The notes beneath the pieces are model-generated. The model searched no databases. It was not told the origin of the DNA and saw nothing but the letters and a program-made list of their open reading frames with translations. This document shows positions 47,730-61,574 of a stretch of DNA of 64,000 bases, in pieces. Positions within the stretch are counted from its first letter, which is position 1. Every line of letters starts with the position of its first letter. The position numbers were made by a program, and so were the translations under genes. The stretch lies in assembly GCA_963703655.1 (NCBI GenBank), contig CAVPFA010000008.1, positions 4,060-68,059 of the forward strand, read 5' to 3'. The stretch is from an uncultured Acidimicrobiaceae bacterium. Its GTDB lineage: Bacteria; Actinomycetota; Acidimicrobiia; Acidimicrobiales; Bog-793.

Positions 47730-47921
47730 ATGGTCGGATCGATGCTCGAAGGCTCCACACCATTGAATCGCATGATCTCGAGCAAGATCGGCTGGCTCGT
47801 CCGCTTCGACCCGGCGGAGATCGCCGCCTGGCTCGACGGTGCTCGGCATCCGCATCGCAGGGCGACGATCGCGCGGGCGTGGTGCTTCCAACCGGCCGGC
47901 GTGGTCCGAATGGCGGCTTGA
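47730..47921 (+). CDS. Possible excisionase/AlpA-type HTH protein (may be degenerate)
   Basis: STPLNRMISSKIGWLVRFDPAEIAAWLDG resembles the C-terminal half of HTH_17/excisionase domains (..IG..vRF....I..WL). The N-terminal helix is not convincing. Confidence 0.3.
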   Translation: MVGSMLEGSTPLNRMISSKIGWLVRFDPAEIAAWLDGARHPHRRATIARAWCFQPAGVVRMAA

Positions 47922-47987
47922 GCTCACCGTGCCGATTTGACCGTTCAGGTTCTCGTGAACCGATCGGGCTCGTAGTGCAATAGAGGG

Positions 47988-48542: not shown

Positions 48543-49264
48543 TGAGCGACATGCGCACGACGGGCCAGGAATGGGACGGGGTGCCGCCTGATGTCGATCT
48601 GGGAAGGGTGTGGAGAGCGGTGGCCACAGAGGTGTGGCACCGCCAGCCGAGCTGGCTAGAGCGCCGTGTTGCGAGGTGGTTGGGCTCGCCGGGTCTGGCA
48701 CGGGCTCTACTGACAACTCCTTCGCTGTTGGTGGCGTGGCTGATCTCGACCGTGGTTGTGCTCGCGGTGGGAGCGGCGGCGACAGTAGGGACAGGCCTCC
48801 CGCTCGTGGCGCTCTTGGCTCCGGCGGTGGCGGGGGCAGGGATCGCGTACGCGTACGGGCCGGGGATGGACCCGGCCTGGGAGCTGTCGTGCAGCATGGC
48901 GGTCAACGACCGGATGGTCCTACTGGTGCGGGCACTGGCAGTCTTCGCCGTCAATGCCGTCTTCGGGCTGGCGGCCTCTGCCGCGTCAGGTTTGGCCGTT
49001 TCGGTCACCTTCGGCTGGCTTGTCCCGATGACCGCGGTGTCGGCGCTGGCGTTGGCCACGGCGACCGTTGCCCGCTCGGCGAACGTGGGCGTAGCGGCGG
49101 GAATGGCTGGCTGGGCAATCACAGTCTTGGCGGCCCAAGCAAGTTCGGGCCAGTGGAGTGCGGCGATCACCGACTGGGCTTTAGTGGCTCCCTACCTGAT
49201 CTTCGCGGCCGGCTGTGCTGCTGTGGTGATTCTTGTTACCCGTGTTCCACGAGGAGCGTCATGA
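48539..49264 (+). CDS. Polytopic membrane protein in the anti-sigma position
   Basis: GTGA overlap with the sigma gene stop. A ~45-aa cytoplasmic N-terminus is followed by about 5-6 TM helices. No zf-HC2 motif is present. The role is inferred from position only. Confidence 0.55.
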   Translation: MMSDMRTTGQEWDGVPPDVDLGRVWRAVATEVWHRQPSWLERRVARWLGSPGLARALLTTPSLLVAWLISTVVVLAVGAAATVGTGLPLVALLAPAVAGAGIAYAYGPGMDPAWELSCSMAVNDRMVLLVRALAVFAVNAVFGLAASAASGLAVSVTFGWLVPMTAVSALALATATVARSANVGVAAGMAGWAITVLAAQASSGQWSAAITDWALVAPYLIFAAGCAAVVILVTRVPRGAS

Positions 49265-50004
49265 ACATCGACATCGACCATCTGACGAGAAAGTTCGGCC
49301 GTACCCAAGCGGTGGCCGGGGTCGACCTGCAAGTCGGTCCCGGGGTGTTCGGGCTCCTCGGCCCGAACGGGGCCGGCAAGACTTCGCTGTTGCGGATGAT
49401 GGCCACCGTGCTGCAACCGTCCTCAGGAAGCTTGCGGCTGTTGGGCCGTGATCCTGCGAGCTACAGCCAGCGTCGTGAGATCCGCCGCCGACTGGGCTAC
49501 CTGCCTCAGAACCTCGGCTACTACCCGGGGTTTACGGTCGTGGAGTTCGTCGAGTACTTCGCACTCTTGAAGGAGATGCCGCCCGCTCGGATACCCGCTG
49601 CAGTGGCCGCCGCCGTAGAGCGGGTCGAGCTCGGGGAAAGGGCCAAGTCCAAGCTACGCACCCTCTCGGGGGGGATGTTGCGCCGGGTGGGGATCGCCCA
49701 AGCCATCGTCAACGACCCTGAGCTGCTGCTGTTGGACGAGCCGACCGCTGGGCTCGACCCCGAGCAGCGGGTGCAGTTCCGGGCCGTGCTGCGCGAGTTT
49801 GGCGAGACGGCCACCGTGATCGTGAGCACGCACCTCGTCGAAGACGTCGGGGCCGCCTGCACCGAGGTGGCGCTCATGGACGGGGGAGGCATTGTGTTTC
49901 GGGGCACCCCCGACGCACTGGCGGCACGGGGTGTAGGGCATGGAGTGGGCGACGCGCCACTGGAACGGGGATACAGCGCTGTGCTTGCCGAGGGGCGCGC
50001 ATGA
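49261..50004 (+). CDS. ABC transporter ATP-binding protein
   Basis: ATGA overlap with the upstream gene. Walker A GPNGAGKTS, signature LSGGMLRR, Walker B LLLLDEPTAGLD. Confidence 0.9.
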   Translation: MNIDIDHLTRKFGRTQAVAGVDLQVGPGVFGLLGPNGAGKTSLLRMMATVLQPSSGSLRLLGRDPASYSQRREIRRRLGYLPQNLGYYPGFTVVEFVEYFALLKEMPPARIPAAVAAAVERVELGERAKSKLRTLSGGMLRRVGIAQAIVNDPELLLLDEPTAGLDPEQRVQFRAVLREFGETATVIVSTHLVEDVGAACTEVALMDGGGIVFRGTPDALAARGVGHGVGDAPLERGYSAVLAEGRA

Positions 50005-51455
50005 CCTCGGTCACGGTCCCGCTCCGCTCCCGGTCACAGCGGGTTCGCCCGGCTCGTCGCGCGCGGTTGCTGCGCCTAGAGCTTCGCCACAGCAACATGA
50101 TCTGGCTGCTCCCACTGCTTGGGGCCCTGTTCTACTTCGACGCCTTCCACAAGGCCGCGGGCTATCCACCGTTTTGGTTGGTGCGCTCCTCGGTTATCCT
50201 TCACGAGCTGGTCCCGGACGTCTCGCTGTTCGCGGCGGGCGTCGGCGCCTGGACCGGATCGCGGGAGGGACGGCGCCAAACGGTCGACCTTGTCACCATT
50301 GCGGCCCGGCCGCGCTGGGCCACCGCACTCGCCTCGTTTGCAGCCACGACCATCTGGACACTCGTAGCGTTCCTCGGCTGTGTCGCTGTGCTCTATGGAT
50401 TCACGGCGACCCAAGCCAGCTGGGGTGGGCCGCCTTGGTGGCCGGTGGCGGCTGGAGCGGCAGTGCTGTGTGCCTTCTGCGCGTTCGGGTTTGCCGCCGG
50501 CGTGTTGCTGCCCGGTCGGTTCACTGCCCCGCTGGCTGCGCTTGTGGCATTCCTGGTGCTCATCGTGGCGTTCCGGGTTGTGCTCAACGAGTCGCAACCC
50601 ACCTTCGCGCTCCTCTCGCCGATGAACTCGGTGCCGCACGGGGACGCCGGGGTGTTCTTCCACTACTTTCCCGACCTCTACATCGTCCAGATCATGTTCT
50701 TCGCCGGGATCGCCGTCGCGGTCCTCGGCGGACTCGGGCTTGCAACGGCGTCGGGCAGCCGGATCGTGTGGCGCACCGCAGCCGTCGTTACCGCGCTTGG
50801 TCTGGCGGCAGCCTCTACTGGCGTCGGTCTCGCCGGGACCGCCCGCGTGGAGGCCAACGGCGTGGTCATCCCTGCCGTCCACGACGCAGCCAGCGACCGG
50901 CCCATCGCCTACACGCCCGTCTGCCAGCAAGGAGCGATCCCTGTCTGCGTCCATCCCGCCTTCCGGGCCTACCTGCCCGACCTCGTTGCCGCCTTGAACC
51001 CGCTCATACACCAGTTCGCGGGGCTCCCCGGGGCACCGGTGCGTGTCGAGCAGGTTTCTTCCTCGACCGTCGCGGAGCTGTCGGTGGCGCTGAGCTCGAC
51101 CGAGATCGAGACCTTGGTCGGTACCAGTGCGACCCTCACCGGTAACCCTCCGGTGCTACACCTGGCCCTCACCCAAATGCCGAGCCAGCCGGAACCACCC
51201 AGTTCACAGCCACTCGCGATCGAGCAGGCCGCCTTCGTGGATGCCTTCATCGGCCCGGCCGGAGGCGCCCTCGGCGACCCGGCTCAGGCAGCGATCGAAG
51301 CGGCCCTGCTCCACGACGCCGGTTCGCTTCCGTCACCCGCGGCCAAAGCCGCAAATCGGTTTGCGGCCCTCGAACCCAGCGTCCGGCGTGCCTGGCTGGC
51401 AACTCACCTCTTGGTTCTTCGATCGGGCCACGTCGCCCTGGCACAGATCCCGTGA
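50001..51455 (+). CDS. Membrane protein (ABC-associated permease-like N-terminal half plus extracytoplasmic domain)
   Basis: ATGA overlap with the ATPase gene. About 6 TM helices occupy the first ~270 aa, followed by a ~210-aa non-membrane region. Confidence 0.6.
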   Translation: MTSVTVPLRSRSQRVRPARRARLLRLELRHSNMIWLLPLLGALFYFDAFHKAAGYPPFWLVRSSVILHELVPDVSLFAAGVGAWTGSREGRRQTVDLVTIAARPRWATALASFAATTIWTLVAFLGCVAVLYGFTATQASWGGPPWWPVAAGAAVLCAFCAFGFAAGVLLPGRFTAPLAALVAFLVLIVAFRVVLNESQPTFALLSPMNSVPHGDAGVFFHYFPDLYIVQIMFFAGIAVAVLGGLGLATASGSRIVWRTAAVVTALGLAAASTGVGLAGTARVEANGVVIPAVHDAASDRPIAYTPVCQQGAIPVCVHPAFRAYLPDLVAALNPLIHQFAGLPGAPVRVEQVSSSTVAELSVALSSTEIETLVGTSATLTGNPPVLHLALTQMPSQPEPPSSQPLAIEQAAFVDAFIGPAGGALGDPAQAAIEAALLHDAGSLPSPAAKAANRFAALEPSVRRAWLATHLLVLRSGHVALAQIP

Positions 51456-52126
51456 CACCCGCCCATGTACGAACACGCGCGGGAAAAGAGTCGAGAATCC
51501 TCCACCCCCTGCCAAGCTGGGGCAGTGCCGCAGCCGGTTCACGACTTGTACGCCTGTACGTCGCGAGCCGGCGCGTCCCCGCCGCTCTGGGAGCGCTCGT
51601 TGGCTGCAGCTTGGTCTTGCGCGCCGCGCTCGAGTGGCACTGGATACCCAGTAGCGGCCCGCTCACCCAGCAGCTGCCGGTGCTGCTGGAGGCTGGAACG
51701 GCATCGGTAATCGCGGTAACCACGTACAGTCCGTTCGGCGAGCCTGAACGCGCCACCGGTCGCTGGCTTCCGTACCTGCGGTTCGGCACGGCTGGAGCCC
51801 TCACCGGAATCGCCGTCGGCTTGCTGAGCGCCGGAGCCGCAGCAGCTCACCTGCCAGGTGGCACTCTCGACGTGGTGCGCAACGTCGCAGGCATGACAGG
51901 CATCGGCCTCATCTCAGCCGCCGTGGTCGGCGGAGGGCTCTCCTGGATCGGACCGATGGCATACCTTGTCCTGAGCGAGGACGCGATATTGAACGACTGG
52001 AGAACCCCGTGGATCTGGCCGACCACACCATCACAGGACGCCGGCGCCGCCCTCTGTGCCGCCCTGGTGTTCGTCGCCGGCGCCGCCATCATCACCGCAC
52101 GCGGCGCCCGCCAGCGCGCCAACTGA
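51452..52126 (+). CDS. Hypothetical polytopic membrane protein (last gene of the sigma/ABC operon)
   Basis: GTGA overlap with the upstream gene. 224 aa with about 5 TM helices. Confidence 0.55.
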   Translation: MTPAHVRTRAGKESRILHPLPSWGSAAAGSRLVRLYVASRRVPAALGALVGCSLVLRAALEWHWIPSSGPLTQQLPVLLEAGTASVIAVTTYSPFGEPERATGRWLPYLRFGTAGALTGIAVGLLSAGAAAAHLPGGTLDVVRNVAGMTGIGLISAAVVGGGLSWIGPMAYLVLSEDAILNDWRTPWIWPTTPSQDAGAALCAALVFVAGAAIITARGARQRAN

Positions 52127-52196
52127 CCATAGACCTCTGTATCAGCGGGAAGGACGAAACCGCAGGCCCAGACGCCATTTTAGCGCGCTCATCGGG

Positions 52197-52236
52197 GGGT
52201 GGTGGTGGCGAGCCGGCCTGTAGGCGGGTTTCTGTC
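52197..52236. repeat. Distal att-like direct repeat (displaced rnpB 3'-end fragment)
   Basis: GGGTGGTGGTGGCGAGCCGGCCTGTAGGCGGGTTTCTGTC is 38/40 identical to 57419-57458. Weaker similarity to rnpB continues for about 25 nt to the right. Confidence 0.8.
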
Positions 52237-52529
52237 GTGGCCAATCTCGTTGCCTGCGGAGCTGGCTGGAAACCGCCTCCGAACTGGTTTTTTGCTTCAC
52301 CGACATTGACCGAGGTTGACAGCCCTTGGCCGACCTCGCGTGTCACGTTTGTGTCATGAAGACGGGGGTCATGCAGGCTGTCGACCTGTTGTAGTCCATC
52401 GCTCGAATGAGCCCGTGGAGCCCACGGACGCGGCCCGTGTCGAGCCGGAGGCGCTCGGAGCGAAATGTCCGTCCGCTACGCGCTCTCGACGTGACTGAAG
52501 ACGCACCTTGCGCGGCGTACAGATGATTC

Positions 52530-52708
52530 GATCGGCGGCAGCCCTCGCGCCGGCCGGCGGCACGATCTAAGGCACACCGGCGTCGCGCTGTTGGCCGGCG
52601 GGCGGCGACGCGATCGAGATCGCGACACGAGCTGGTCACGCAAGCGACGCGTTCACCCATGACCGTTATGGCCATCTTCTCCCGGACGTGGACAAGCAGC
52701 GGCGGTAA
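52530..52708 (+). pseudogene. Remnant of a second tyrosine recombinase (C-terminal ~55 codons, internally frame-shifted)
   Basis: One frame reads GRRHDLRHTGVALLAGG (box II HDLRHT). After a frame slip, GGDAIEIATRAGHASDAFTHDRYGHLLPDVDKQRR-stop (52706-52708) follows, containing the catalytic-Tyr region. Compare the intact-looking RLGHASAAETLDTYSHLWPDSED in the neighbouring integrase. Confidence 0.6.
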
Positions 52709-52748
52709 AGTTGGAAGCGCTGCGGTCAGCTGCCCGTCTCCTCTGAAC

Positions 52749-53816
52749 TCACGCGTACTGGCGTCGCAGCCACCAGTAGGTGAATCCGCACAACACCAGC
52801 GCTGCCGCGAGGAAGATCCCCATCTCCGCCCACTGGAACGGCCAGAAGCGACTCGCCGGCTGATGGGTGACGACCGTGTGGAAGGTCGCGGAGAGCTTGC
52901 TCACGCACGCTTGGAGTCCCGGCGCCGCGCGAGGTCCGCCACCGGAGTGCTCCCCGACGATGGCGCCCCCGCCACCCACCTGCGGGAGCTTGGCGAGCGC
53001 GGGGCAGTTATGGAGCAGGTACTGGCTCGTAGGTACATGTCCGGCCTTGTCGACCACCCTCGTCGAGTACACCCAGCCGTTCGAAACGTTCACGTTCGGT
53101 GGCGTGAGCGAGACACTGCTGTTGGACACGCGGAAGCCGGGACCCGAACCGGTCGAGAGCGGGAGGGACTCGTGCACGGGCGAGGCGAGGTTGGGGCGAA
53201 CCCAGTACGTGACGGCGAGGCGTGCAGCCGCGAACCCCACGCCCGTGACGGCCATTGCTGCGACCGTCCGGCGCAGCAGGACGCCTGCAGTCGCGCCGAG
53301 CGCGAACGCGAACGCAGCGTAACCGAGCGGCGCGACACCCTGAAGACCGAAGTTCCCGAGGCCGAAGCGATTCTGATTCACGGCGTCGAGCGGGCTCGCC
53401 CACCAATCAGCCATCCAAGTGACCAGTCCACCGATCACCATGGACGCGATGCCGACCACTGCGAACTTCACCGCGAGCCAGCGCCGCCGGGTGACGCTCT
53501 GGGTCCAGGCGAGGCGGAAGGTACCCGTCTCGAGCTCGCGGGCGACGAGCGGCGCGCCGAAGAAGAGCCCGATGAGCGCCGGCGCGATGACCACGATGAA
53601 CGGCAGGGCACTCTGCAGCGGCTTCTCGGCGTTCAGCACCGGGTTCGAGGCCGACACCGCGGCACAGTTCCCCGCCGCCTTACAGGTGGACTGGAAGGCG
53701 TCGCTCACATGCACGAGGTGGACACCGGTGACGGCGAGCACGATGGCGAGGACGACGAACAGACCGAAGCCGATGATCGCTTCGGTGCGGAACTGACGGA
53801 GCGTCAGGCGGATCAC
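52749..53816 (-). CDS. ABC-2-type transporter permease
   Basis: The GTG at 53816 overlaps the ATPase stop (GTGA), and GGAGG lies upstream. The product starts VIRLTLRQFRTEAIIGFGLFVV and has about 6 TM helices with a large extracytoplasmic loop. Confidence 0.7.
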   Translation of the reverse strand: MIRLTLRQFRTEAIIGFGLFVVLAIVLAVTGVHLVHVSDAFQSTCKAAGNCAAVSASNPVLNAEKPLQSALPFIVVIAPALIGLFFGAPLVARELETGTFRLAWTQSVTRRRWLAVKFAVVGIASMVIGGLVTWMADWWASPLDAVNQNRFGLGNFGLQGVAPLGYAAFAFALGATAGVLLRRTVAAMAVTGVGFAAARLAVTYWVRPNLASPVHESLPLSTGSGPGFRVSNSSVSLTPPNVNVSNGWVYSTRVVDKAGHVPTSQYLLHNCPALAKLPQVGGGGAIVGEHSGGGPRAAPGLQACVSKLSATFHTVVTHQPASRFWPFQWAEMGIFLAAALVLCGFTYWWLRRQYA

Positions 53817-54703
53817 GATCGGACCTCCAGGTTTGGCCGGCGGTCCTCTTGGACGGCGCGGGTCATGTAGGCAAGGACGAGATCTTCGAGATCGAGGCTC
53901 TCGACCGACCACGCCGGATCGAGAACGGGCTTGTCGGTGCGCACGACGAGCGTGCTCTGCCGGTCGGTGTGGCTCTCGCCGATGACCTGCTGATCGCTCG
54001 GGAGCGCGTCGCGGTCGTGTCGCGGACCCGTCAACCGGTGGTGGGCCGCGAGCAGCTCGTCGATGTCGCCAGCGACCTGCACGCGCGAGTCGACGAGCAC
54101 GACGAGGTAGTCACAGACCCGCTCCAGGTCGGCGACGAGGTGGGAGGAGAGGATGACGCTCGCGCCTTGCTCGACGACGACCTCCATCAGGCCCTGGAGG
54201 AACTCGCGTCGTGCGAGAGGATCGAGGCTCGCCACCGGCTCGTCGAGCACGAGCAGCTCCGGGCGTTTCGCCACCGAGAGAGTGAGCGCGAGCTGGGCGC
54301 GCTGGCCGCCCGAGAGCTTGCCGGCCTTCTGTCGGGGATCGAGCCCGAGGCGCTCGATCCGTATCCGAGCGAGCTTCGCGTCCCAGCTCGGGTTCATCCA
54401 CCCGCCGAATCGGAGGTGATCGGCGATCGACAGTCCCGCGTACGTCGGGGTGTCCTGGGCGACGAAACCGACGCGGGCGAGCTGGCCCGGTGTCGTGCCG
54501 GGACGCCCACCGAGGACGGAGATCGACCCAGCGCTCGGCTGCAGGAGACCGACCGAGAGGTGAAGCAGCGTGGTCTTGCCGGCGCCGTTCGGTCCGACGA
54601 GGCCGACGACCTTGCCAGCTGGGACGGCGAGCGTGCACTCCGAGAGCGCCCACTTGTGTCCGTAGCGCTTACCGAGGCCGTTCGCCTCCAGGACGGCGGT
54701 CAC
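53813..54703 (-). CDS. ABC transporter ATP-binding protein
   Basis: The GTG at 54703 overlaps the GntR stop (GTGA). Walker A GPNGAGKTT, signature LSGGQRAQ, Walker B LLVLDEPVASLD. Confidence 0.9.
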   Translation of the reverse strand: MTAVLEANGLGKRYGHKWALSECTLAVPAGKVVGLVGPNGAGKTTLLHLSVGLLQPSAGSISVLGGRPGTTPGQLARVGFVAQDTPTYAGLSIADHLRFGGWMNPSWDAKLARIRIERLGLDPRQKAGKLSGGQRAQLALTLSVAKRPELLVLDEPVASLDPLARREFLQGLMEVVVEQGASVILSSHLVADLERVCDYLVVLVDSRVQVAGDIDELLAAHHRLTGPRHDRDALPSDQQVIGESHTDRQSTLVVRTDKPVLDPAWSVESLDLEDLVLAYMTRAVQEDRRPNLEVRS

Positions 54704-55104
54704 GCTACGTCTTCCGCGGAGGAGGACCGAACGACCTCGCGAAAGAGCGCCTCGATGCTCTCCTCGTCGAGGCCCGCGCGTCGCGCCTGCGCCAGCCAAC
54801 GTTGCAGGCTCTGACGGAGCGGACCGTGGGCGGCGAGAGAGTCGTCGCTCAGGGTCGTCGTGACGAAGATGCCAATGCCCGGTCGAGCGGCGACGAGACC
54901 GAGGTGCTCCAGCTCCTTGTACGCCTTGAGCACCGTGTTCGGATTGATCGCGAGACTCGTCACCACCTCCTTCACGGTGGGGAGCTGGTCGCCAACTTCG
55001 AGCAGGCCGAGTCGCAGCGCGTGGCGGACCTGTTGGACGACCTGTTGGTAGGGCGCGACACCCGAGCGCTTGTCAAGATGGAATTCGATCACCGTTGACT
55101 CCAT
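54700..55104 (-). CDS. GntR-family regulator, short YtrA-like subtype
   Basis: 134 aa. wHTH PYQQVVQQVRHALRLGLLEVGDQLPTVKEVVTSLAINPNTVLKAYKELEHLGLV, with a short C-terminal domain. It is the first gene of the GntR-ABC operon. Confidence 0.85.
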   Translation of the reverse strand: MESTVIEFHLDKRSGVAPYQQVVQQVRHALRLGLLEVGDQLPTVKEVVTSLAINPNTVLKAYKELEHLGLVAARPGIGIFVTTTLSDDSLAAHGPLRQSLQRWLAQARRAGLDEESIEALFREVVRSSSAEDVA

Positions 55105-55139
55105 GGTTAACTAGGAACATAGGTAACCATGAACCATGG
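55101..55139. promoter_or_regulatory. AT-rich inverted-repeat region overlapping the GntR start codon (operator candidate)
   Basis: CCATGGTTAACTAGGAACATAGGTAACCATGAACCATGG. The outer inverted repeat is CCATGGTT/AACCATGG, and the inner palindromes are GTTAAC and GGTAACC. It is the only AT-rich stretch nearby. Confidence 0.45.
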
Positions 55140-55468
55140 CCGAGCATCTGTCAAGGCAGATCCGTCAGCGGCTGCCGTCCGGCGTGAGGCACATTTGAGA
55201 GGCACCATTAAGGGGTCGCAGTCGGACCACGCCTCGCGCTGCCTCCGCGACCTGTACGACGCCTCCCGTCGTGCTTCGCGAAAGGGTGCGCACCGGGCAG
55301 CACACCTTTATGCAGAAGTCGGATCGCGTCGCGATAGAACCTCGGTCAGATCGCACTCGGGGCGTCGAGTGCGGTCGGAAATATTCGGCGTTATACGCTC
55401 ACTCACTGACCGAGGCGATCACTTTCGTGGCCCACGGTCACCCGCGAGCTGCGCGCGACCGGGGACCC

Positions 55469-55828
55469 TCACGATCCTTCGGGCCGTCGAACCCGAACCA
55501 GATGGCCGCGCACGACGACGATGCATCCTGTGAGATCGCCGAGCTGCTCGTTGCTCAGGAAACTCCGAACCGTGGCGGCGACTGTGGCTACGTCCTGGTG
55601 CCGAGAGCGGATGACAGCAATACCTGGGTGGCTGCCGGGCGGGTATCGACGGATGTCGCCAAAGCCTCGATCGAGCGTGATAAGGAAGCGCTGGTCCCTT
55701 ATAGCTGCGGCTAGGACCTCGGGGTCACCTGTACCTTCGAGACCTTCCTCGATCACGGTGTCGACCTCGTGACCCAACGAGGCGGCAGCGAGTCGTGCCT
55801 CCTCTGGGAGATTCTCGTCGAGCTTCAG
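55469..55828 (-). CDS. DUF5615 (Mut7-C/PIN-like) putative toxin; apparent non-canonical start
   Basis: The ORF track starts at the TTG (MGHEV...) at 55777. The frame stays open and family-like upstream (LKLDENLPEEARLAAASLGHEV), back to the CTG at 55828, 2 nt after the DUF433 stop. There is no ATG/GTG/TTG in that stretch. Confidence 0.6.
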   Translation of the reverse strand: MKLDENLPEEARLAAASLGHEVDTVIEEGLEGTGDPEVLAAAIRDQRFLITLDRGFGDIRRYPPGSHPGIAVIRSRHQDVATVAATVRSFLSNEQLGDLTGCIVVVRGHLVRVRRPEGS

Positions 55829-55830
55829 CC

Positions 55831-56073
55831 TTACCCCGGCGACGGCTCGAGTGGATGCAGCTCGTCGCGGGCGAGAAACGCCGCGTAGGCGAGGGCGGCA
55901 GCCACCGCTCCGGTCGGAAGTGACGGGTACTCGGCGTGGATCTGCTCTTCGGTCATTCCCGCTGCCAGGCAGTCAAGTACCACGCTCACCGGGATGCGAG
56001 TACCGCGAATCCGGGCCTGACCGTGCACGACCGCGGGGTCAGCGTCGACGAGGTCGAGGGGCTCCGTTGGCAT
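55831..56073 (-). CDS. DUF433 putative antitoxin (HTH-like)
   Basis: The Met at 56073 gives MPTEPLDLVDADPAVVHGQARIRGTRIPVSVVLDCLAAGMTEEQIHAEYPSLPTGAVAAALAYA, the typical DUF433 signature. Confidence 0.7.
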   Translation of the reverse strand: MPTEPLDLVDADPAVVHGQARIRGTRIPVSVVLDCLAAGMTEEQIHAEYPSLPTGAVAAALAYAAFLARDELHPLEPSPG

Positions 56074-56301
56074 CGCTTCATGGTCCCACATCGGTCGGCC
56101 AAGGCGGAGAAGTGTGATCGCCCTATGTTCCTGTGGTACGAAGGGTACGGCCACGTGACACGGGCGGATTCGAACAGTCGATCCGCTTTCCACGTCGGCA
56201 GATCGCGCCGACGGGCTCCGTCGGAGCCACGTCTATTCGACCGCGCAACGCCGCTCGCTCACTCGCCGTGACGGCCGACAGTTGCCGACGAAAGAGGAAC
56301 C

Positions 56302-57404
56302 ATGAGCTCCGTCACGAAGGTCCCCACTGGCTGGCGTGCCCGCTGGCGCACGCCCGATGGCAAGTCCCGCTCGAAGACATTCGCGCGGAAGATCGACGCC
56401 GAGAAGCACCTCACCGGCACCGACCACGCGAAGCTGACGGGGGCTTATGTCGACCCCGGCGCCGGCCGGATCACGTTCAGGACCTACGGCGAGCAGTGGC
56501 GGGCGGTCCAGGTGCACCGGCCGTCCACGGCGGTCCAGCTCGAGACGAACCTGCGTCGTCACGTCTACCCGACGCTCGGTGATCAACCAATCGGCGCCGT
56601 CCGCCCGTCCGAGGTCCAAGCCTGGGTGCGCAGCCTCGCCGAGGTCCTCGAGCCGAGCACCGTTGAACTCGTCTACCGCTACATGGTCGCCATCTTCCGG
56701 GCCGCTGCTGCTGACCGGGTCATCTCGCAGAACCCCGCGATCGGGACCCGGCTGCCGAAGAGCGAACCGCGACGGATCGAGCCGTTGGAGGCCGAAGTCG
56801 TTCAGGCGATCATCGAGGCGGTGCCTGACCGCTATCGGGCGCTCGTGGTCCTCGCAGCAGGCACCGGGCTCCGCCAGGGCGAGTGCTTCGAGCTGACATT
56901 GGATCGGGTGGATTTCCTGCGCCGACAGCTCACCATCGACCGTCAACTCGTACTCCTCCCGGGTCAGGGCGCGTGCTCGGGGCGCCGAAGACGCAGGCGA
57001 GCTACCGGATTGTGCCGCTGCCTGCTTACGTGCTCGACGCCCTGGCCGTTCACCTCGCCCGCTACCCGGTTGGCCCCGATGGTTTCCTGTTCACCAATCA
57101 CGCCGGCGATCCGATCCGCCGGACTCGGTTCTCGGACATGTGGCGTCCTGCCGTGAAGGCTTCTGGCGCGCCCGCAGGGACCGGCTTTCACTCCCTGAGG
57201 CACTTCTACGCATCGTTGCTGATCCGACACGGGGAGTCCGTCAAGGTCGTGCAGGCCCGCCTCGGCCATGCAAGCGCGGCTGAGACGCTCGACACGTACT
57301 CGCACCTTTGGCCCGACAGCGAGGACCGGACACGCGCCGCCGTCGACGAAGTGCTCGGACCTCGTGTGTCACCTGCGTGTCACGCCGTGGAGGCCGGAAC
57401 ATAA
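56302..57404 (+). pseudogene. Tyrosine recombinase/phage-type integrase, frame broken at about 56971
   Basis: ORF 56302..57156 supplies the N-terminal SAM-like domain and the catalytic Arg region (AAGTGLRQGECFEL). ORF 56883..57404 supplies PKTQASYRIVPLP, HSLRHFYASLL and RLGHASAAETLDTYSHLW (catalytic Tyr). The two frames join at ..LLPGQG / VLGAPKT with 2 extra (or 1 missing) nt. Confidence 0.85.
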
Positions 57405-57418
57405 AACCCTGGTCAGGC

Positions 57419-57458
57419 GGGTGGTGGTGGCGAGCCGGCCTATAGGCGGGGTTCTGTC
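57419..57458. repeat. rnpB-proximal att-like direct repeat
   Basis: GGGTGGTGGTGGCGAGCCGGCCTATAGGCGGGGTTCTGTC. Positions 57431-57458 are the last 28 nt of rnpB. The repeat starts 14 nt after the integrase stop codon. Confidence 0.8.
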
Positions 57459-57797
57459 CGCCGGCCCGGTCTTGCCGGTACCGGCGGGGTGGCCATCCAT
57501 CTACGCGGCCTACCTGGGGACTTAGGGCGGGCCGCCCGTCCCACGTTTGGCCTTGCTCCGGGTGGGGTTTACCAAGCCGACCAGGTCACCCCGGCCGCTG
57601 GTGCGCTCTTGCCGCACCGTTTCACCCTTGCCTGTGCACAGCAAGCCGTGCCATCGGCGGTCTGTTCTCTGTGGCACTGTCCTGCGGGTTGCCCCGACTA
57701 GCCGTTAGCCAGCACCCTTGCCCTATGGAGCCCCGACCTTCCTCAGCCGGTGGCAGCGCCAAAGCGCCGCTCCGGCCGCGACCACCCGGCCGACTCG
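57431..57797 (-). ncRNA. rnpB: RNase P RNA, bacterial type A
   Basis: Minus strand conserved blocks: GAGGAAGGTCGGGGCTCCATAGGGCAAGGGTGCTGGCTAACGGC, ACAGTGCCACAGAGAACAGACCGCC, GGTGAAACGGTGCGGCAAGAGCGCACC, GGTAAACCCCACCCGGAGCAAGGCCAAA, and ACAGAACCCCGCCTATAGG. P1 pairs CGAGTCGGCC (57797-57788) with GGCCGGCTCG (57440-57431). Ends are +/- a few nt. Confidence 0.9.
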
Positions 57798-58335
57798 CCA
57801 CCACCGGGGTCATTCTCGCACGCTCTCGGCAACCCGGCCGCAACCAACCAAGCGTCGCCGCCCGACCGCACCGACGAGCAGGCCGCGTGTCGCCGTGTAT
57901 CCCGATATACTGGCATGAGTGCTTGCAGACCAGAAAGCTAAGCATTAGATTGTCAAGACAGATTATAAGGCCACTGAATAGATTGTGGATAACCGGGCGA
58001 GCCATGTGGAAGAGTTTCGATCTCTCTCATGAGATTGCGTAGCAACCGATGACCGAACCAGTTGCCGAATCGGCCGCTAGCCTCGAGATCGATATGCCGT
58101 GGGCGCCCCAGAGGACTGTAGAGTCCTCACGGTCGCCCCGGCCGAAGTCTGATCGGGATGCGCTTTTGCGCCCCCGGTCATAGGACCGATTACCTGCGAA
58201 CCCCCCCTTGCGGGTGATCAGGGTGGGGCCGTCCCCCGGGCGCCCGGCCGAAAGGCTGGAGCTCGGGGGACGTCCGCGTCAACGCCCCGCTTAAGCGGGT
58301 AGGACCGCGCCGCGGCGCCGCGTGATCCTGTCTCG

Positions 58336-58965
58336 TCATTCGGACAGGTGTGCGAGATGCGCCGTCTCGTTGAAGCTGACCAGGGCCGGGCCGCCTGAAC
58401 CACCCGTCTGGATCCGGCTGATCGACGCGACGCCGAGCGACAACCGCCACGACATTTCCGCGCCGCCGCCCAGTGCCCAGATGACGGCGGCCTTGATCGG
58501 CGATACGTGGCTCACGACGACGACATCGCAGCTGGCCGCCTCCGCGGCAAGCTCTTCGCAGGCGGCCGCCACCCTTGCCAGGACCTCTTCGAGCGTCTCG
58601 CCGCCGGGGGGTCTCCACGTTGCGTCCGAGCGCCACCGATCCCAGAGTCCGGGCGGAAGGTCCCCGGGCGCCGTTACATCGAGGTTGCCATAGTCAAGTT
58701 CGATGTAGCGCCCGTCGACTTCCACCTCGGGCCACGCTCCCCAGGAGAGCGGCGCCGGGGTCGCGGCGATCGCCTCTGCAGTCTGCCGGGCGCGCTGTAG
58801 GGGACTGGTGACGAGGCGGCAAGGCGCTATACGGCGCGACGCGAGCACGTCGCCGAGGACAGCGGCCTGCCGGCGCCCCAGATCGGTAAGGGGCGAGTCT
58901 GCCCTTCCGAGCAGGAGGCCGGCGGCATTAGCCTCGCTCTGGCCGTGACGCACCAGCACCAGCAT
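58336..58965 (-). CDS. Histidine phosphatase family protein (phosphoglycerate mutase/CobC-like)
   Basis: MLVLVRHGQSEANAAGLLLGRADSPLTDLGRRQA has the RHG catalytic motif. 209 aa. Confidence 0.8.
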   Translation of the reverse strand: MLVLVRHGQSEANAAGLLLGRADSPLTDLGRRQAAVLGDVLASRRIAPCRLVTSPLQRARQTAEAIAATPAPLSWGAWPEVEVDGRYIELDYGNLDVTAPGDLPPGLWDRWRSDATWRPPGGETLEEVLARVAAACEELAAEAASCDVVVVSHVSPIKAAVIWALGGGAEMSWRLSLGVASISRIQTGGSGGPALVSFNETAHLAHLSE

Positions 58966-58994
58966 CAGTTGCTAAAAGACCGCTTGGTCGCCCA

Positions 58995-59786
58995 TCAGGG
59001 CACGAGGATGCGACCGCACTGCTCGCAGTAAACGATCGAGTCAGGAGCGGCGTGGCGCAGCCTGTCCAGCTCCCCCGCCGGCAGCTGCAGATGACAGCCG
59101 CTGCACGCCCCGCCGACCAGTCGTGCGGCGCCCACTCCGCCGAGCTTGGCCTTGAGACGCTCGTAGGACGCCGCCAGTTCCGGCGCGACACGCGTGGCGA
59201 GTTCATCGCGCGCTGCGCGCGTCGATGCAGCCTCTTCGTCGATCGCAGCCTCTGCGAGGCCGAGCTGCTCGCGGGCAAGCGCCAGCTCCTCGATGCCTGC
59301 GGCGGCGCTCTCCTCGAGCGCGGACAGCTCCTGATCGAGCGGCTCCAGAGCTTCCATGACCTCGAGCTCCTGGTCCTCGATCTCTCGCCGCTGGCGACTG
59401 AGGGATGCGGCCTCCTCACCCATCGCCTGTTCGTCCCGATAGGAGCCGGCTCGCCCCGAACGCAGGCGCTGCTCGATGGCCGCGATCCGTTGACCTACGG
59501 CCTCAGATCGGGCATCGAAGGTCAGCTGCTGCGCTGCGAGCTTGTCGCGCTGCTCTCGGGCCTCGATGACTCGGGCAGTCTGCTCGGCAAGCCTGGCGCT
59601 CAGCTCCGACACCGCGGCTCGCTCGGCCAGCTCACGGCGACGGTAGGCGAGGCGATCGAGCCCAAGGTCCTGCTCTTGAAGCTGTAGGAGGAGAGACAGC
59701 TGCGGCGCCTGAGAAGAAGTGGCTGACTCGGCTGCGGAGGGCTCGGCTGAGGAGGCTGCTGACGACTCGGCTGCGCTCGGGGACAT
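58995..59786 (-). CDS. Coiled-coil protein with C-terminal C4 zinc ribbon (DUF164/CT398-like)
   Basis: Long heptad-rich region ending in GACSGCHLQLPAGELDRLRHAAPDSIVYCEQCGRILVP (CxxC ... CxxC). Confidence 0.75.
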   Translation of the reverse strand: MSPSAAESSAASSAEPSAAESATSSQAPQLSLLLQLQEQDLGLDRLAYRRRELAERAAVSELSARLAEQTARVIEAREQRDKLAAQQLTFDARSEAVGQRIAAIEQRLRSGRAGSYRDEQAMGEEAASLSRQRREIEDQELEVMEALEPLDQELSALEESAAAGIEELALAREQLGLAEAAIDEEAASTRAARDELATRVAPELAASYERLKAKLGGVGAARLVGGACSGCHLQLPAGELDRLRHAAPDSIVYCEQCGRILVP

Positions 59787-59798
59787 CGCGGATCGAGG

Positions 59799-60554
59799 TT
59801 ACCGGTGCCACGTCGCCCTGGCTGCGACCAGCTCGGCCAGCAGTGCTGGTGTGCCGGCCGCGACGGGCGTCCTGCGGGCCGAGTGGTCCCTCACGACGAG
59901 ATCACGGCCCTCAGCGTCGACTAGAAGCGCACCCGCCTCGGCACACACCAGCAGTGCGCCTAGGTAGTCCCAGCTGCCGTGCGCATCGTGCACGCAGTCG
60001 ACATAACCGTCCAAGGTCCCGTCCGCGACTGCGCACAGGTCCAGCGCTGCGGCTCCGAGCGCTCGAAACTGCCGCCATCCGAGATAGCGAGGCGGGTACC
60101 CGGACACTCCGATAAGCGAGCGGCCGAGCGACTCCGACGAAGAGGGGGCGATCGTTTCTCCGTCACGCCGTGCGCCGGCGCCTCGCGCTGCCTCGTAACG
60201 GGCACCGGTCGCCTGATTGACGACGAGCGCGGCGAGCGGCCCGACGTCGTCCAGAACGCAGATGCTGGTCGCGTACCACGGAATGCGCCGCGAAGCGTTC
60301 GTGGAGCCGTCGACCGGATCGAGCACCGCGAGCAGCGGCCGCTCGGGAGCCTCGGCACTGAGGCCGGACTCCTCGCTCAGGATCCCGAGGCCGGCATCGG
60401 TGAGAACGCGAACCGCGGCTGAGTCCGCGACGAGATCGGACCGGTACTGTCCGGGCCGGGCGCCGGTCAACCCCCAGTCGGCGAGGCCGCTGAGCGAGCC
60501 TGCGACCGCATCGGCCGCTTCGCCGAGGACCTGCAGAAGCTCCGCGCCGTCCAC
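59799..60554 (-). CDS. Inositol monophosphatase family protein (SuhB/ImpA/CysQ-like)
   Basis: Motifs ILSEESG, LDPVDGSTNASRRIPWYATS and GSWDYLGALLVCAEAGA. Confidence 0.8.
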   Translation of the reverse strand: MDGAELLQVLGEAADAVAGSLSGLADWGLTGARPGQYRSDLVADSAAVRVLTDAGLGILSEESGLSAEAPERPLLAVLDPVDGSTNASRRIPWYATSICVLDDVGPLAALVVNQATGARYEAARGAGARRDGETIAPSSSESLGRSLIGVSGYPPRYLGWRQFRALGAAALDLCAVADGTLDGYVDCVHDAHGSWDYLGALLVCAEAGALLVDAEGRDLVVRDHSARRTPVAAGTPALLAELVAARATWHR

Positions 60555-60604
60555 AGGACCGAACCGTAGCGTCCCACCCGCGCCCGACTAAACTCAGGTG
60601 CCGA

Positions 60605-61165
60605 ATGGCCGTCATCGACGTAGCTGGTTATGTTGCCGAGCTTAAGGATCATGCGGTCGACCACAAGTTTCACGTGCACGACGAGCGTCACTTCGTCGAG
60701 ACGTACTCTCTTCGACAGTTCTGGGAAGTCGACCTCCACCCCGAGGAAGGTTGTGGCGGACCGATCGACCTCCACCTCGCGCTCGAGGTCGAGCCCCGCG
60801 TGCTTCTCGACTTCGAGGATGCCGTCGTCGCTCTGCCCGAGGACGAGGACCCCGCCGACAAGTGGTTTTTCCCGCTCACGTTCAATTGGGGCGTGCCGCC
60901 CCTCCCGCAGGGGCCCGACCTCCTTCGGCTCGCGATCGACCTAGCAGGGGTAGGGGGCGTCGACCTCCCACTTGAGATCTCAGCGACGGACTCCTTCGCC
61001 TCGGTGACCGACGCTCCGGTCCGGCGCCTCACTATCGTCGCCAGGCAGCAGGTATCGCTGGCTCGGGTACTCGCGGGCGAGGAGCTGCTCTGCGACACGT
61101 TCGACCGTGCTCTCGGAGTTACCCGTTTCTTGCTCGACAAAGCCCCAATCTGGCTCGGAGAATAA
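60605..61165 (+). CDS. Hypothetical acidic cytoplasmic protein
   Basis: 186-aa ORF with plausible coding character. No family recognised. Confidence 0.45.
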   Translation: MAVIDVAGYVAELKDHAVDHKFHVHDERHFVETYSLRQFWEVDLHPEEGCGGPIDLHLALEVEPRVLLDFEDAVVALPEDEDPADKWFFPLTFNWGVPPLPQGPDLLRLAIDLAGVGGVDLPLEISATDSFASVTDAPVRRLTIVARQQVSLARVLAGEELLCDTFDRALGVTRFLLDKAPIWLGE

Positions 61166-61166
61166 A

Positions 61167-61526
61167 TTGGCGCGGCCGCGACTGGTCGCCGGCTTCATCA
61201 TTCTCGCTCTGGCATGCAACTTGGTCCTGACCGATTGCTCCTCGCAGGACGCCGCACCCCTGGCACACCAGGCGTGCGCCCAGGTCGAACGGGCTCTGGC
61301 CGCCGAGCGCCAGGTGGCCTCCGCCAGCGCCCCTCGTGCGGCGCACCTCGAGGCAGCCGCGCTCGACGACGTGCGGGCGGCTCTTCCGCTCGCGGCTCTG
61401 GCGGCCGGCGACGACACGTCCTGGCAGGCGCTCGACGCCACCTTGAGCGAGTCGAACCGTGTCCCGCTTCGCTATCTCCTCCACGCGCTCAGCGACCAGT
61501 GTGCCAACTCTGCCGGGGACGGCTGA
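61167..61526 (+). CDS. Putative lipoprotein
   Basis: The TTG at 61167, 1 nt after the upstream stop, gives LARPRLVAGFIILALACNLVLTDCSSQ, a signal peptide plus lipobox-like LTDC. The ORF track's start at 61107 overlaps the upstream gene. Confidence 0.5.
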   Translation: MARPRLVAGFIILALACNLVLTDCSSQDAAPLAHQACAQVERALAAERQVASASAPRAAHLEAAALDDVRAALPLAALAAGDDTSWQALDATLSESNRVPLRYLLHALSDQCANSAGDG

Positions 61527-61574
61527 GGCGGGCAGTTCTCTCCAAGGCCGCCCTTGATCCGACCGACTCACCAC

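What the first reader, a model, noticed from the sequence alone, without database searches (positions are those of the whole stretch)
52197..57797. Integrated ~5.3-kb element that appears to use the 3' end of the RNase P RNA gene (rnpB) as its attachment site
A 40-nt direct repeat, 38/40 identical (GGGTGGTGGTGGCGAGCCGGCCT[G/A]TAGGCGGG[T/G]TTCTGTC), lies at 52197-52236 and 57419-57458. The right copy covers the last 28 nt of rnpB (minus strand: the 3' strand of helix P1 plus the conserved ACAGAAC block) and 12 nt downstream. A tyrosine-recombinase gene, convergent with rnpB, ends 14 nt from that copy. The far copy is an orphan 3' fragment. This is the layout of tRNA/tmRNA-targeting genomic islands: integrase next to the reconstituted RNA gene, displaced 3' fragment at the other end. 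Cargo is a YtrA-like GntR, an ABC ATPase, an ABC-2 permease, and a DUF433/DUF5615 TA-like pair. tRNA and tmRNA genes are the textbook RNA-gene targets. I am not aware of rnpB being an established target class, so this may be an undescribed attB type and integrase specificity.
Basis: partly seen in the sequence, partly recalled or inferred. Interest (0 to 1): 0.75.

Follow-up and report, generated by a model that had tools for sequence, protein, structure and literature searches.

The report
Mobile element inserted into rnpB gene
A decayed 5.2-kb mobile element sits at the 3' end of the essential RNase P RNA gene, and comparison with about 200 related loci shows that a whole clade of actinobacterial integrases, including those of two cultured phages, uses this gene as its docking site, a target I could not find reported in the searchable literature.

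Summary
A class A RNase P RNA gene lies at 57427-57797 (-). Its last 32 nt plus 11 nt beyond are repeated 5.2 kb away (52194-52236; 40/43 identical, unique in the window). A tyrosine integrase gene ends 11 nt from the gene-proximal copy.

- Of the 80 best genomic relatives of the integrase (53-90% identity, many actinobacterial genera), 66 have rnpB within 10 kb and 47 have it directly adjacent.
- Seventeen repeat pairs show orphan rnpB 3' fragments 4.8-11 kb away.
- One contig carries the attP-type junction, with both arms matching the window's two ends.
- Intact relatives at the same locus carry a MobF relaxase and an excisionase.
- Arthrobacter phages Kukla and TripleJ carry an rnpB 3'-end mimic right after their integrase gene.

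The window's copy is a fossil. The relaxase and excisionase genes are deleted, and the integrase has a 1-nt frameshift.

No empty site was found, because every relative examined is occupied. The DNA left of the orphan repeat is itself mosaic.

Ten literature searches found no paper that names rnpB as an attachment site. I rate this a new target class of a known mechanism.

The parts
52194..52236 (-). attL: orphan copy of the rnpB 3' end (core), the displaced fragment at the end of the element far from rnpB
   Evidence: Direct repeat of 57416-57458, 40/43 identical and unique in the window. It is complementary to the rnpB 5' end, like the real 3' end (pair I18). Homology to the L001 attP junction begins at this core and continues into the element.
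52237..52404 (+). P arm of the element. It includes a pair of arm-type repeats, GTGTCAC-N4-GTGTCA, at 52340-52356
   Evidence: 84% identical to L001 3300-3509, the stretch that runs from the attP core through the sequence just after it. The motif pair occurs only twice in 64 kb, once in each arm, against 0.06 expected.
52477..52724 (+). Frameshifted relic of the C-terminus of a second tyrosine recombinase (HDLRHT...RYGHLLP). It is conserved backbone near the left end of this element family
   Evidence: Three-frame translation. blastx matches integrase residues about 290-347 at 43-50% identity across two frames. 75% identical to L115 178-428 in an intact relative.
52749..53912 (-). Cargo: ABC-2 family permease
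   Evidence: PF12679, E=1e-14. Homologous to the cargo of L119.
53813..54799 (-). Cargo: ABC transporter ATPase (longest ORF; the true start is probably near 54700)
   Evidence: PF00005, E=8e-23. The best NCBIfam resemblances are PmtA, DrrA and lantibiotic-protection ATPases, all below their cut-offs.
54700..55104 (-). Cargo: small GntR-family regulator (YtrA/PmtR/Rv1152-like)
   Evidence: PF00392, E=3e-15. NCBIfam Rv1152 and PmtR models hit below their cut-offs.
55249..55433 (.). Deletion scar. The sequence that in intact relatives lies just downstream of the relaxase gene is joined directly to the toxin-antitoxin/integrase module. About 3.8 kb carrying the MobF relaxase and the excisionase is missing
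   Evidence: Window 55249-55411 matches L117 606-766, and window 55434-57843 matches L117 4611-7023. L117 767-4610 (TrwC/MobF relaxase plus HTH_17 excisionase) is absent.
55469..55777 (-). DUF5615 protein, the putative toxin of a TA-like pair
   Evidence: PF18480, E=4e-14. The same pair sits next to the integrase in L001 and L117.
55831..56193 (-). DUF433 protein, the putative antitoxin (longest ORF; the real start is probably internal)
   Evidence: PF04255, E=7e-21. Conserved next to the integrase in L115-L117 and L205-L209.
56302..57404 (+). Tyrosine integrase gene with a 1-nt deletion near 56957. The repaired product is 367 aa
   Evidence: PF14659, PF22022 and PF00589 spread over the two ORFs. 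Intact 367-aa homologues are 92-94% identical. The deletion is located by alignment to three intact genes. The positions I read as the catalytic R191, K230, H297, R300, H323 and Y333 are conserved columns in the family alignment and are present here.
57366..57382 (+). P' arm-type repeat pair GTGTCAC-N4-GTGTCA, inside the 3' end of the integrase ORF
   Evidence: Analogous 7-nt pairs at 11-bp spacing, with different sequences, lie at the same place in relatives.
57416..57458 (-). attR: the core copy that forms the functional 3' end of rnpB
   Evidence: The central 39 nt (57420-57458) are identical to the cores of L001, L002 and L004.
57427..57797 (-). rnpB, bacterial class A RNase P RNA, full length
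   Evidence: RF00010, 220.5 bits, model 1-367, not truncated.
47783..47902 (+). Outlying fragment: the 3' part of an excisionase (HTH_17) gene of the same element family, 4.3 kb left of attL. It may be a relic of an older or rearranged island
   Evidence: 90% identical to L115 8979-9099, which lies inside that element's excisionase gene.

Best explanation
Window 52237-57415 is the decayed remnant of an integrative mobilizable element. Its lambda-type tyrosine integrase recombines an element-borne site (attP) with the 3' end of the chromosomal RNase P RNA gene.

Shown:
- attP carries a 30-43-nt copy of the rnpB 3' end (P4 3' strand, P1 3' strand and a few bases beyond), flanked by arms that hold pairs of 7-nt direct repeats.
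- After insertion, the element-side copy completes rnpB, which scores as a full-length class A RNase P RNA. The displaced native fragment is left at the far end of the element.
- The same architecture recurs in dozens of actinobacterial species and in phage genomes, all with integrases of one clade.

Inferred:
- Strand exchange happens inside the shared core, probably around the imperfect palindrome CCGGCC-TATA-GGCGGG.
- The 7-nt repeats are arm-type binding sites for the integrase N-terminal domain.
- Excision needs the HTH_17 excisionase, and transfer uses the MobF relaxase seen in intact relatives.

In this window both of those genes are deleted and the integrase is frameshifted. This copy is therefore most likely immobile. 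What remains is a GntR-regulated ABC-2 exporter and a DUF433/DUF5615 addiction-type gene pair.
For: - Repeat and rnpB boundaries.
- Integrase family: 3787 homologues at E<=1e-20, with intact 367-aa versions 92-94% identical.
- Linkage to rnpB: among the 80 best loci from one genome per species, 38 have rnpB convergent within 150 nt, 9 co-directional about 178 nt upstream, 19 elsewhere within 10 kb, and 14 have none. Three of those 14 are contig ends and three carry only a core. Rfam confirms rnpB in 7 of 7 loci tested.
- Orphan cores: 17 repeat pairs (the window plus 14 relatives, two of them with two orphan copies) of 23-46 nt, mostly 100% identical, 4.8-11.2 kb from rnpB. In all but the window's own pair the identity block starts right after ACAGAA.
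- attP junction in L001: integrase (89% identical), then a core identical to the central 39 nt of the window's attR, then the homologue of window 52237-52404.
- The arm repeat pair occurs only twice in the window, once in each arm.
- Intact relatives at the same rnpB/His_Phos_1/CT398/Inositol_P locus carry a MobF relaxase (NF041492, 147 bits against a cut-off of 100) and an excisionase (TIGR01764, 46 bits against 28.8). One of them has the same GntR-ABC-ABC2 cargo.
- Phage-like contigs: 7 of 13 IMG/VR loci with an integrase of at least 44% identity have an rnpB-type core 70-100 nt after the integrase gene, against 0 of the 43 listed loci at 43% or less. One of the seven has a tail-protein gene.
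- Arthrobacter phages Kukla and TripleJ carry CACAGAACCCGGCGTATCGGTCAACCCATCCAC 12 nt after the integrase stop. This nearly matches Micrococcales rnpB 3' ends.
- In a neighbour-joining tree, all loci with rnpB or a core fall in one clade plus its Kukla/TripleJ sister group.
Against: - No empty site (left flank joined directly to rnpB) was found. Fourteen close relatives of the left-flank gene block have other DNA after window position 52141. All relatives that share the rnpB upstream genes are occupied or end at a contig break.
- The DNA left of attL (47783-52193) is not clearly stable chromosome.
- The L001 junction could be the boundary between two tandem islands rather than an excised circle.
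- The frameshift lies in a homopolymer in what looks like a long-read assembly, so it may be an artefact.
- All evidence is computational. No recombination was observed.
Confidence: 0.85

Rival explanations
1. The element is still functional. The frameshift is a homopolymer sequencing error, and excision or transfer functions are dispensable or supplied in trans by related elements.
For: The indel is one base in a C-run. The contig names and the 42 indels between two assemblies of the same population suggest error-prone long reads. The positions I read as catalytic residues, both cores and both arm-repeat pairs are all intact. Related integrases are common in the same habitat.
Against: The same truncated 284-aa ORF is present in two assemblies. 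The 3.8-kb relaxase-excisionase segment is truly absent when compared with L115-L117. No other excisionase or integrase of this family was noticed in the 64-kb window, apart from a 120-nt excisionase fragment.
Confidence: 0.12
2. The reader's 5.3-kb unit is only the rnpB-proximal member of a larger, rearranged array. The excisionase fragment at 47783-47902 and the ECF-sigma/ABC block at 47903-52141 would be remains of an older island, so the true limit of foreign DNA lies further left. This extends the best explanation and does not compete with it.
For: The excisionase fragment is 90% identical to that of intact relatives. In those relatives it would continue directly into the sequence found at window 55434. 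The 4.2-kb block has different neighbours on both sides in 14 related contigs, and in L092 it lies next to a PadR-ABC-FtsX module like the cargo of L115. Tandem arrays with two or three cores occur in L010, L024 and L049.
Against: The sequence just left of the attL core does not resemble a P' arm. No third core copy exists in the window. No model I tried explains both breakpoints with a single event.
Confidence: 0.3
3. The integrase gene is a domesticated, vertically inherited neighbour of rnpB, and the repeat arose by local duplication, not by integration.
For: Occupancy is very high in the lineage around the window. Every relative examined has an integrase at rnpB. No empty site was seen.
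Against: - Cargo differs completely between close relatives: PadR-ABC-FtsX, GntR-ABC, Nramp, Fic/TetR, AbiE.
- Integrase orientation differs between relatives at the same locus (L204 against L205-L209).
- Relaxase and excisionase genes, orphan cores at variable distances and tandem arrays are present.
- An attP-type junction and phage-borne copies of the core exist.
Confidence: 0.03

Closest known systems
Genomic islands and prophages integrated in the 3' ends of tRNA and tmRNA genes (Reiter 1989; Williams 2002; the Islander database, PMC4383910)
   Same: A tyrosine integrase lies next to the regenerated RNA gene. The element carries a copy of the gene's 3' end. The displaced 3' fragment marks the other end. 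Tandem arrays form by repeated use of the site. Target preference follows integrase subfamily.
   Different: The target is the RNase P ribozyme RNA, not a tRNA-like molecule. The shared block covers the P4 and P1 3' strands rather than an anticodon arm, T arm or acceptor stem. Islander searches only tRNA and tmRNA genes, and the TIGER/Islander resource reports targets as tRNA/tmRNA, protein-coding or intergenic (PMC12424338). Such islands would therefore be filed as intergenic, if they are found at all.
Enterococcus phage phiEf11 integration into ffs, the 4.5S/SRP RNA gene (Sci Rep 2025, PMC12540744)
   Same: A non-tRNA structural RNA gene serves as attB, with an identity block of about 27 nt close to the integrase gene. 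It was presented as a novel attachment-site class.
   Different: The RNA gene, the phylum (Bacillota) and the integrase are all different. That paper added RNase P models to Phage_Finder but reports no rnpB site.
Actinomycete integrative elements (AICEs and IMEs such as pSAM2, SLP1, pMEA300), named from my own knowledge of the literature, not tested here
   Same: Small (5-15 kb) actinobacterial elements with int and xis next to attP, integrated at the 3' end of an RNA gene.
   Different: The known examples target tRNA genes and move with an FtsK-like TraB. The intact relatives here carry a MobF (TrwC-type) relaxase instead, and I saw no TraB or replication genes.
Lambda-type integrases with arm-binding N-terminal domains
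   Same: Three-domain architecture (PF14659, PF22022, PF00589). Paired short direct repeats lie in both arms about 35-105 nt from the core. A separate HTH_17 excisionase is present in intact relatives.
   Different: Binding to the repeats is inferred only. The P' repeats overlap the integrase stop region. The closest cultured-phage integrases are only 37% identical.
dusA-specific integrase family (NAR 2015, PMC4482086)
   Same: A dedicated integrase clade is tied to one conserved housekeeping gene across many genera and was found by genomic context.
   Different: That family targets the 5' end of a protein-coding gene in Proteobacteria. I saw this paper only as a search hit and did not read it in detail.

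Membership tests
Bacterial RNase P RNA class A (Rfam RF00010) | Full-length match to the covariance model above the gathering score | tested here: met
   220.5 bits against 100, model 1-367, not truncated. The same holds for 7 related loci.
Tyrosine recombinase / phage integrase (PF00589) | Catalytic domain with the R-K-H-R-H/W-Y residues, plus SAM-like N-terminal and central domains | tested here: met
   PF14659, PF22022 and PF00589 hits. R191, K230, H297, R300, H323 and Y333 are conserved columns and are present in the repaired protein; their catalytic role is my assignment.
Tyrosine recombinase / phage integrase (PF00589) | Uninterrupted reading frame | tested here: not met
   A 1-nt deletion at about 56957 splits the gene. 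The same break is present in a second assembly. A sequencing artefact is not excluded.
Site-specific island in the 3' end of a structural RNA gene (Islander/Williams model) | Integrase gene at one end, next to the intact target gene | tested here: met
   The integrase ORF ends 11 nt before the core. 47 of 80 relatives have rnpB directly adjacent.
Site-specific island in the 3' end of a structural RNA gene (Islander/Williams model) | Direct repeat formed by the target gene's 3' end and an orphan fragment at the far end | tested here: met
   for the window. 16 further repeat pairs in 14 relatives.
Site-specific island in the 3' end of a structural RNA gene (Islander/Williams model) | attP form: both arms joined through the core on an unintegrated or tandem copy | tested here: met
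   L001 has the integrase, the core, then the homologue of the window's left interior. Phages Kukla and TripleJ and several IMG/VR contigs carry the core after the integrase gene.
Site-specific island in the 3' end of a structural RNA gene (Islander/Williams model) | Empty attB in a related genome | tested here: inconclusive
   Not found among 34 left-flank loci or 9 right-flank loci. The site is occupied, or the contig ends there, in every relative.
Site-specific island in the 3' end of a structural RNA gene (Islander/Williams model) | Observed integration or excision | not testable with these tools
   Needs reads, PCR or lysogeny experiments.
Integrative mobilizable element (IME) | Integrase plus excisionase plus relaxase/oriT, without a full conjugation apparatus | tested here: not met
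   The window lacks the relaxase and excisionase. Intact relatives L115-L117 and L119 have both. The window's copy is therefore a remnant of an IME and not a working one.
Type II toxin-antitoxin-like pair DUF433/DUF5615 | Adjacent small genes carrying the two domains | tested here: met
   PF04255 and PF18480. Toxin activity was not tested. No PADLOC scan was run.

The most novel reading that the evidence does not exclude
rnpB, the single-copy essential RNase P RNA gene, is a previously unrecognised and widely used attachment site. One clade of tyrosine integrases, carried by mobilizable islands and by temperate phages, targets its P4/P1 3' strands across the class-level diversity of Actinomycetota: Acidimicrobiia, Geodermatophilales, Propionibacteriales, Mycobacteriales, Pseudonocardiales and Micrococcales. 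Some lineages are close to fully occupied. Current island finders file these elements as intergenic.
Probability: 0.6. Interest if true: 0.65.

Novelty: new variant of a known kind. Interest (0 to 1): 0.6.

Why it matters
- It adds a fourth structural-RNA target (after tRNA, tmRNA and ffs) to the list of integrase docking sites. The integrase clade is coherent, which supports the idea that integrase subfamilies track particular RNA substructures.
- Island and prophage finders that look only at tRNA and tmRNA genes will misplace or miss these elements in Actinomycetota. Orphan rnpB 3' fragments are a precise boundary marker that they could use.
- rnpB is universal and single-copy, and its 3' end is highly conserved. 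These integrases are therefore candidates for broad-host-range single-copy integration vectors in actinobacteria.
- The element supplies part of the catalytic-core helix P4 of an essential ribozyme. Sequence differences between attP and attB could then change RNase P RNA itself, and this can be tested.
- Kukla and TripleJ on Arthrobacter globiformis provide a cultured system for such experiments.

Tried and rejected
1. Empty site through the left flank. A metagenome scan with the 224-aa left-flank protein gave 34 loci. None has rnpB or a core after the gene, and homology to the window stops at 52141.

2. Empty site through the right flank. Homologues of the His_Phos_1 gene upstream of rnpB were looked up on their contigs. 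All have an integrase at rnpB or a contig end there.

3. Conserved outer flanks among Geodermatophilaceae islands. The flanks do not match between species, or they match the inside of another species' island, which indicates tandem arrays.

4. A loose regular expression for orphan cores gave many chance hits in this GC-rich DNA. I dropped it and used the BLAST-defined repeats instead.

5. E. coli check. This test cannot see fragments of 30-40 nt, so it says little.

6. Cultured phages and plasmids with a close integrase. None exceeds 38% identity. Of the phage hits inspected, only Kukla and TripleJ have an rnpB-type core. Gordonia phage Schmidt and Glutamicibacter phage BIM BV-113 have tRNA 3' ends instead, and corynephage 304L has an unrelated annotated attP core.

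7. Single-event models (inversion, insertion, tandem deletion) for the excisionase fragment at 47783-47902 next to the 47903-52141 block. None fits both breakpoints, and no target-site duplication was seen.

8. Literature. Ten full-text searches and 13 papers were inspected, and none names rnpB as an att site. The TIGER 2020 and Williams 2002 papers are not held in the library.

Full report
**Observation**

Rfam places a full-length class A RNase P RNA gene at 57427-57797 on the minus strand. The score is 220.5 bits against a gathering score of 100, and the match covers model positions 1-367. A direct repeat links 52194-52236 to 57416-57458 (43 nt, 40/43 identical). With up to three mismatches the 39-mer occurs exactly twice in the window, and none of 100 shuffles gave a match. 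A short-word BLAST found no degenerate extra copies.

The right copy covers the last 32 nt of the covariance-model match plus 11 nt beyond it. In RNA terms this is GACAGAA, the 3' strand of helix P4 and the whole 3' strand of P1; the helix names follow my own knowledge of the E. coli M1 RNA structure. P1 remains paired, with 57423-57440 against 57788-57805 at 17/18.

**Gene content between the repeats**

Reading left to right:
- ABC-2 permease, 52749-53912 (-)
- ABC ATPase, 53813-54799 (-)
- small GntR regulator, 54700-55104 (-)
- DUF5615, 55469-55777 (-)
- DUF433, 55831-56193 (-)
- tyrosine integrase on the plus strand, split into 56302-57156 and 56883-57404

Alignment with three intact homologous genes shows one missing base in a C-run near 56957. 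The repaired protein is 367 aa and keeps the positions I read as the catalytic residues. Intact 367-aa proteins that are 92-94% identical exist in metagenomes.

A second assembly of the same population (L120; 98.9% identical, 42 indels over 17.7 kb, collinear) has the same truncated ORF and the same overall layout. In it the two cores differ only at the central A/G. The structure is therefore not an assembly artefact. The frameshift is reproducible, although a systematic homopolymer error cannot be excluded.

**Is the integrase tied to rnpB?**

I aligned 33 family members and scanned one genome per species of GTDB. This gave 580 confirmed relatives, of which the best 80 (53-90% identity) were fetched with 10-kb flanks. 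nhmmer with the window's rnpB sorted them as follows:

| Arrangement | Loci |
|---|---|
| rnpB convergent, within 150 nt of the integrase stop | 38 |
| rnpB convergent, 151-600 nt away | 7 |
| rnpB convergent, more than 600 nt away | 9 |
| rnpB co-directional, about 178 nt upstream of the integrase start | 9 |
| rnpB co-directional, further upstream | 3 |
| no rnpB found | 14 |

Of the 14 loci without rnpB, three are contig ends and three carry only a core. Rfam confirmed rnpB in all seven loci tested.

The hosts include:
- Acidimicrobiales
- Geodermatophilus, Blastococcus and Modestobacter
- Nocardioides and Marmoricola
- Mycobacterium and Mycolicibacterium
- Pseudonocardia and Actinomycetospora
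- Kineococcus, Actinotalea, Janibacter and Terrabacter

A 400-nt gene in a genome of several megabases would lie next to a random integrase about once in several thousand cases.

**Other ends of the islands**

The window and 14 relatives together give 17 repeat pairs. In each, a second copy of the rnpB 3' end (23-46 nt, mostly 100% identical) lies 4.8-11.2 kb away on the integrase side. In RNA orientation, the identity block in every pair except the window's own starts immediately after ACAGAA, at the first base of the P4 3' strand. It then runs 5-10 nt past the end of the gene. In the window's pair the block reaches 8 nt further in. L010, L024 and L049 have two orphan copies or a tandem arrangement. 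This matches the island anatomy known for tRNA and tmRNA genes.

**attP**

Contig L001 encodes an integrase 89% identical to the window's. Its 3' end is followed by a core identical to the central 39 nt of the window's rnpB-side core. After that comes not rnpB but the homologue of window 52237-52404, the sequence just inside the left repeat. This is the arm-core-arm arrangement expected of an excised circle or of the joint between two tandem islands. Either way, it shows that the window's two ends belong to one recombination site.

The motif GTGTCAC-N4-GTGTCA occurs exactly twice in 64 kb, once in each arm (52340-52356 and 57366-57382), against 0.06 expected. Relatives have different 7-nt pairs with the same 11-bp spacing at the integrase 3' end. 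I read these as arm-type integrase sites; that is an inference.

**What the intact element looks like**

Contigs that encode the 93-94% identical integrases sit at the same chromosomal place: rnpB followed by His_Phos_1, a CT398-like protein and inositol monophosphatase. Between cargo and integrase they carry a 1024-1052-aa MobF relaxase (NF041492, 147 bits against a cut-off of 100) and an excisionase (TIGR01764, 46 bits against 28.8), usually together with the DUF433/DUF5615 pair. One of them has the same GntR-ABC-ABC2 cargo, and others have PadR-ABC-FtsX.

Compared with L117, the window lacks 3.8 kb that holds the relaxase and excisionase. The junction lies between 55411 and 55434. The window's copy is therefore a remnant of a mobilizable element. 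With no excisionase, no relaxase and a broken integrase, it is most likely immobile.

**Phages**

No sequenced phage or plasmid has an integrase more than 38% identical. Among IMG/VR contigs with enough downstream sequence, 7 of 13 with an integrase of at least 44% identity carry an rnpB-type core 70-100 nt after the integrase gene, against 0 of the 43 listed loci at 43% or less. One of the seven has a tail-protein gene nearby.

The best cultured hits are the Arthrobacter phages Kukla and TripleJ (37% identity). They have CACAGAACCCGGCGTATCGGTCAACCCATCCAC 12 nt after the integrase stop. This is almost the same as the rnpB 3' ends of Terrabacter and other Micrococcales in my loci. Other phage relatives carry tRNA 3' ends instead.

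In a rough neighbour-joining tree without bootstrap support, all loci positive for rnpB or a core form one clade, with Kukla and TripleJ in the sister group. The co-directional arrangement forms its own subclade.

**What could not be shown**

I found no empty site. The left-flank gene block (ECF sigma factor, ABC ATPase and two membrane proteins, 47903-52141) is present in 14 related metagenome contigs at 90-96% identity, but with different DNA on both sides. None of them has rnpB or a core next to it.

Directly left of that block lies a 120-nt excisionase fragment (47783-47902). It is 90% identical to the excisionase of intact relatives, where it would continue straight into the sequence found at window 55434. 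So the DNA left of the orphan repeat may itself be island debris. I could not find one event that explains the arrangement.

Relatives found through the gene upstream of rnpB all have an integrase at rnpB, in either orientation and with different cargo, or else the contig ends there. This points to a heavily used hot spot with turnover. It does not give the clean before-and-after comparison.

**Comparison with what is known**

The mechanism is the classical one for tRNA and tmRNA islands; only the target is different. The TIGER/Islander resource classifies targets as tRNA/tmRNA, protein-coding or intergenic. A 2025 paper presents the SRP RNA gene ffs as a novel non-coding RNA attachment site and lists only tRNA/tmRNA and csRNA genes as known RNA targets.

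Ten full-text searches that combined rnpB or RNase P RNA with integrase, attB, attachment site, prophage, island or integrative returned no paper describing integration at rnpB. Subscription journals and database supplements were not searchable.

**Verdict**

The instance in the window is a fossil. The comparative result is that a coherent integrase clade, carried by mobilizable islands and by phages, uses the rnpB 3' end across Actinomycetota. I rate this a new variant of a known kind, of moderate to high interest, and directly testable with cultured phages and strains.

Noticed in passing
window 47783-47902 and 47903-52141: A 120-nt 3' fragment of an excisionase gene of the same element family abuts a 4.2-kb block (ECF sigma factor 47988-48542, ABC ATPase, two membrane ORFs). 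In 14 related contigs this block has different neighbours on both sides. In intact relatives the fragment would continue directly into window 55434. The rearrangement is unexplained.
   Followed up: partly
window 52477-52724: Frameshifted relic of a second tyrosine-recombinase C-terminus just inside the left end. It is conserved at the same place in the intact relative L115 (178-428), so it is old backbone and not a recent event.
   Followed up: partly
window 57843-58045 (AT-rich stretch about 57900-58040): Relatives L115-L118 and L201-L209 have an HSP20 gene between rnpB and His_Phos_1. The window has instead about 200 nt of unusually AT-rich sequence directly upstream of rnpB.
   Followed up: no
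window 30002-36750 against L003, L019 and L076: Genes at 34049-36750 are homologous, in inverted orientation, to the rnpB 5' flank of L003 and L019. Genes at 30002-34520 match the region upstream of rnpB(+) in L076. This suggests that a segment of about 20 kb containing rnpB was inverted or translocated in the window's lineage.
   Followed up: no
window 9827-10048 (-) and 16447-16520 (-): A group II intron domain D1-D4 match (RF02005, 177.6 bits) and a tRNA gene elsewhere in the window. Neither is connected to the finding.
   Followed up: no
L052, L057, L058, L060, L063, L065, L067, L074, L076, L204; L006, L070, L025: Two other layouts exist. In one, rnpB is co-directional and ends about 178 nt before the integrase start; these loci form a separate subclade in the tree. 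In the other, the integrase 3' end faces the orphan core at the end of the island far from rnpB. In L006 the arm sequences are inverted relative to the integrase when compared with the window.
   Followed up: partly
P' side of most convergent loci, e.g. window 57406-57413 (CTGGTCAG); L010, L020, L024 and others: A conserved motif, CTGACC(T/A)GC in rnpB orientation, lies just beyond the core on the integrase side in most loci. GCAGGTCAG also appears after more distant integrases that lack an rnpB core. It may be a binding site for an accessory protein or a core-type integrase site.
   Followed up: no
L210 (PQ362669.1 Kukla) 1780-1812; L211 (NC_049470.1 TripleJ) 1780-1812: These cultured Arthrobacter phages carry an rnpB 3'-end mimic 12 nt after the integrase gene. 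It is flanked by TGCCCATGG-type repeat pairs on both sides. The records carry no attP annotation.
   Followed up: yes
L010 11672-11829: A c-di-AMP riboswitch (RF00379, 45.9 bits) lies about 130 nt upstream of rnpB in Geodermatophilus arenarius.
   Followed up: no
L001 3730-8689: The cargo of the attP-bearing relative includes a retroviral-type aspartyl protease domain protein, an ankyrin-repeat protein and an AbiEi/AbiEii pair. Cargo in this element family changes quickly and is partly defence-related.
   Followed up: no
L120 against window 46318-64000: The public ENA contig that carries the same truncated integrase differs from the window by 144 substitutions and 42 indels over 17.7 kb. Its permease gene is broken into several called ORFs. 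These are two assemblies or polishing states of one population, so single-base indels in this region should be read with caution.
   Followed up: partly
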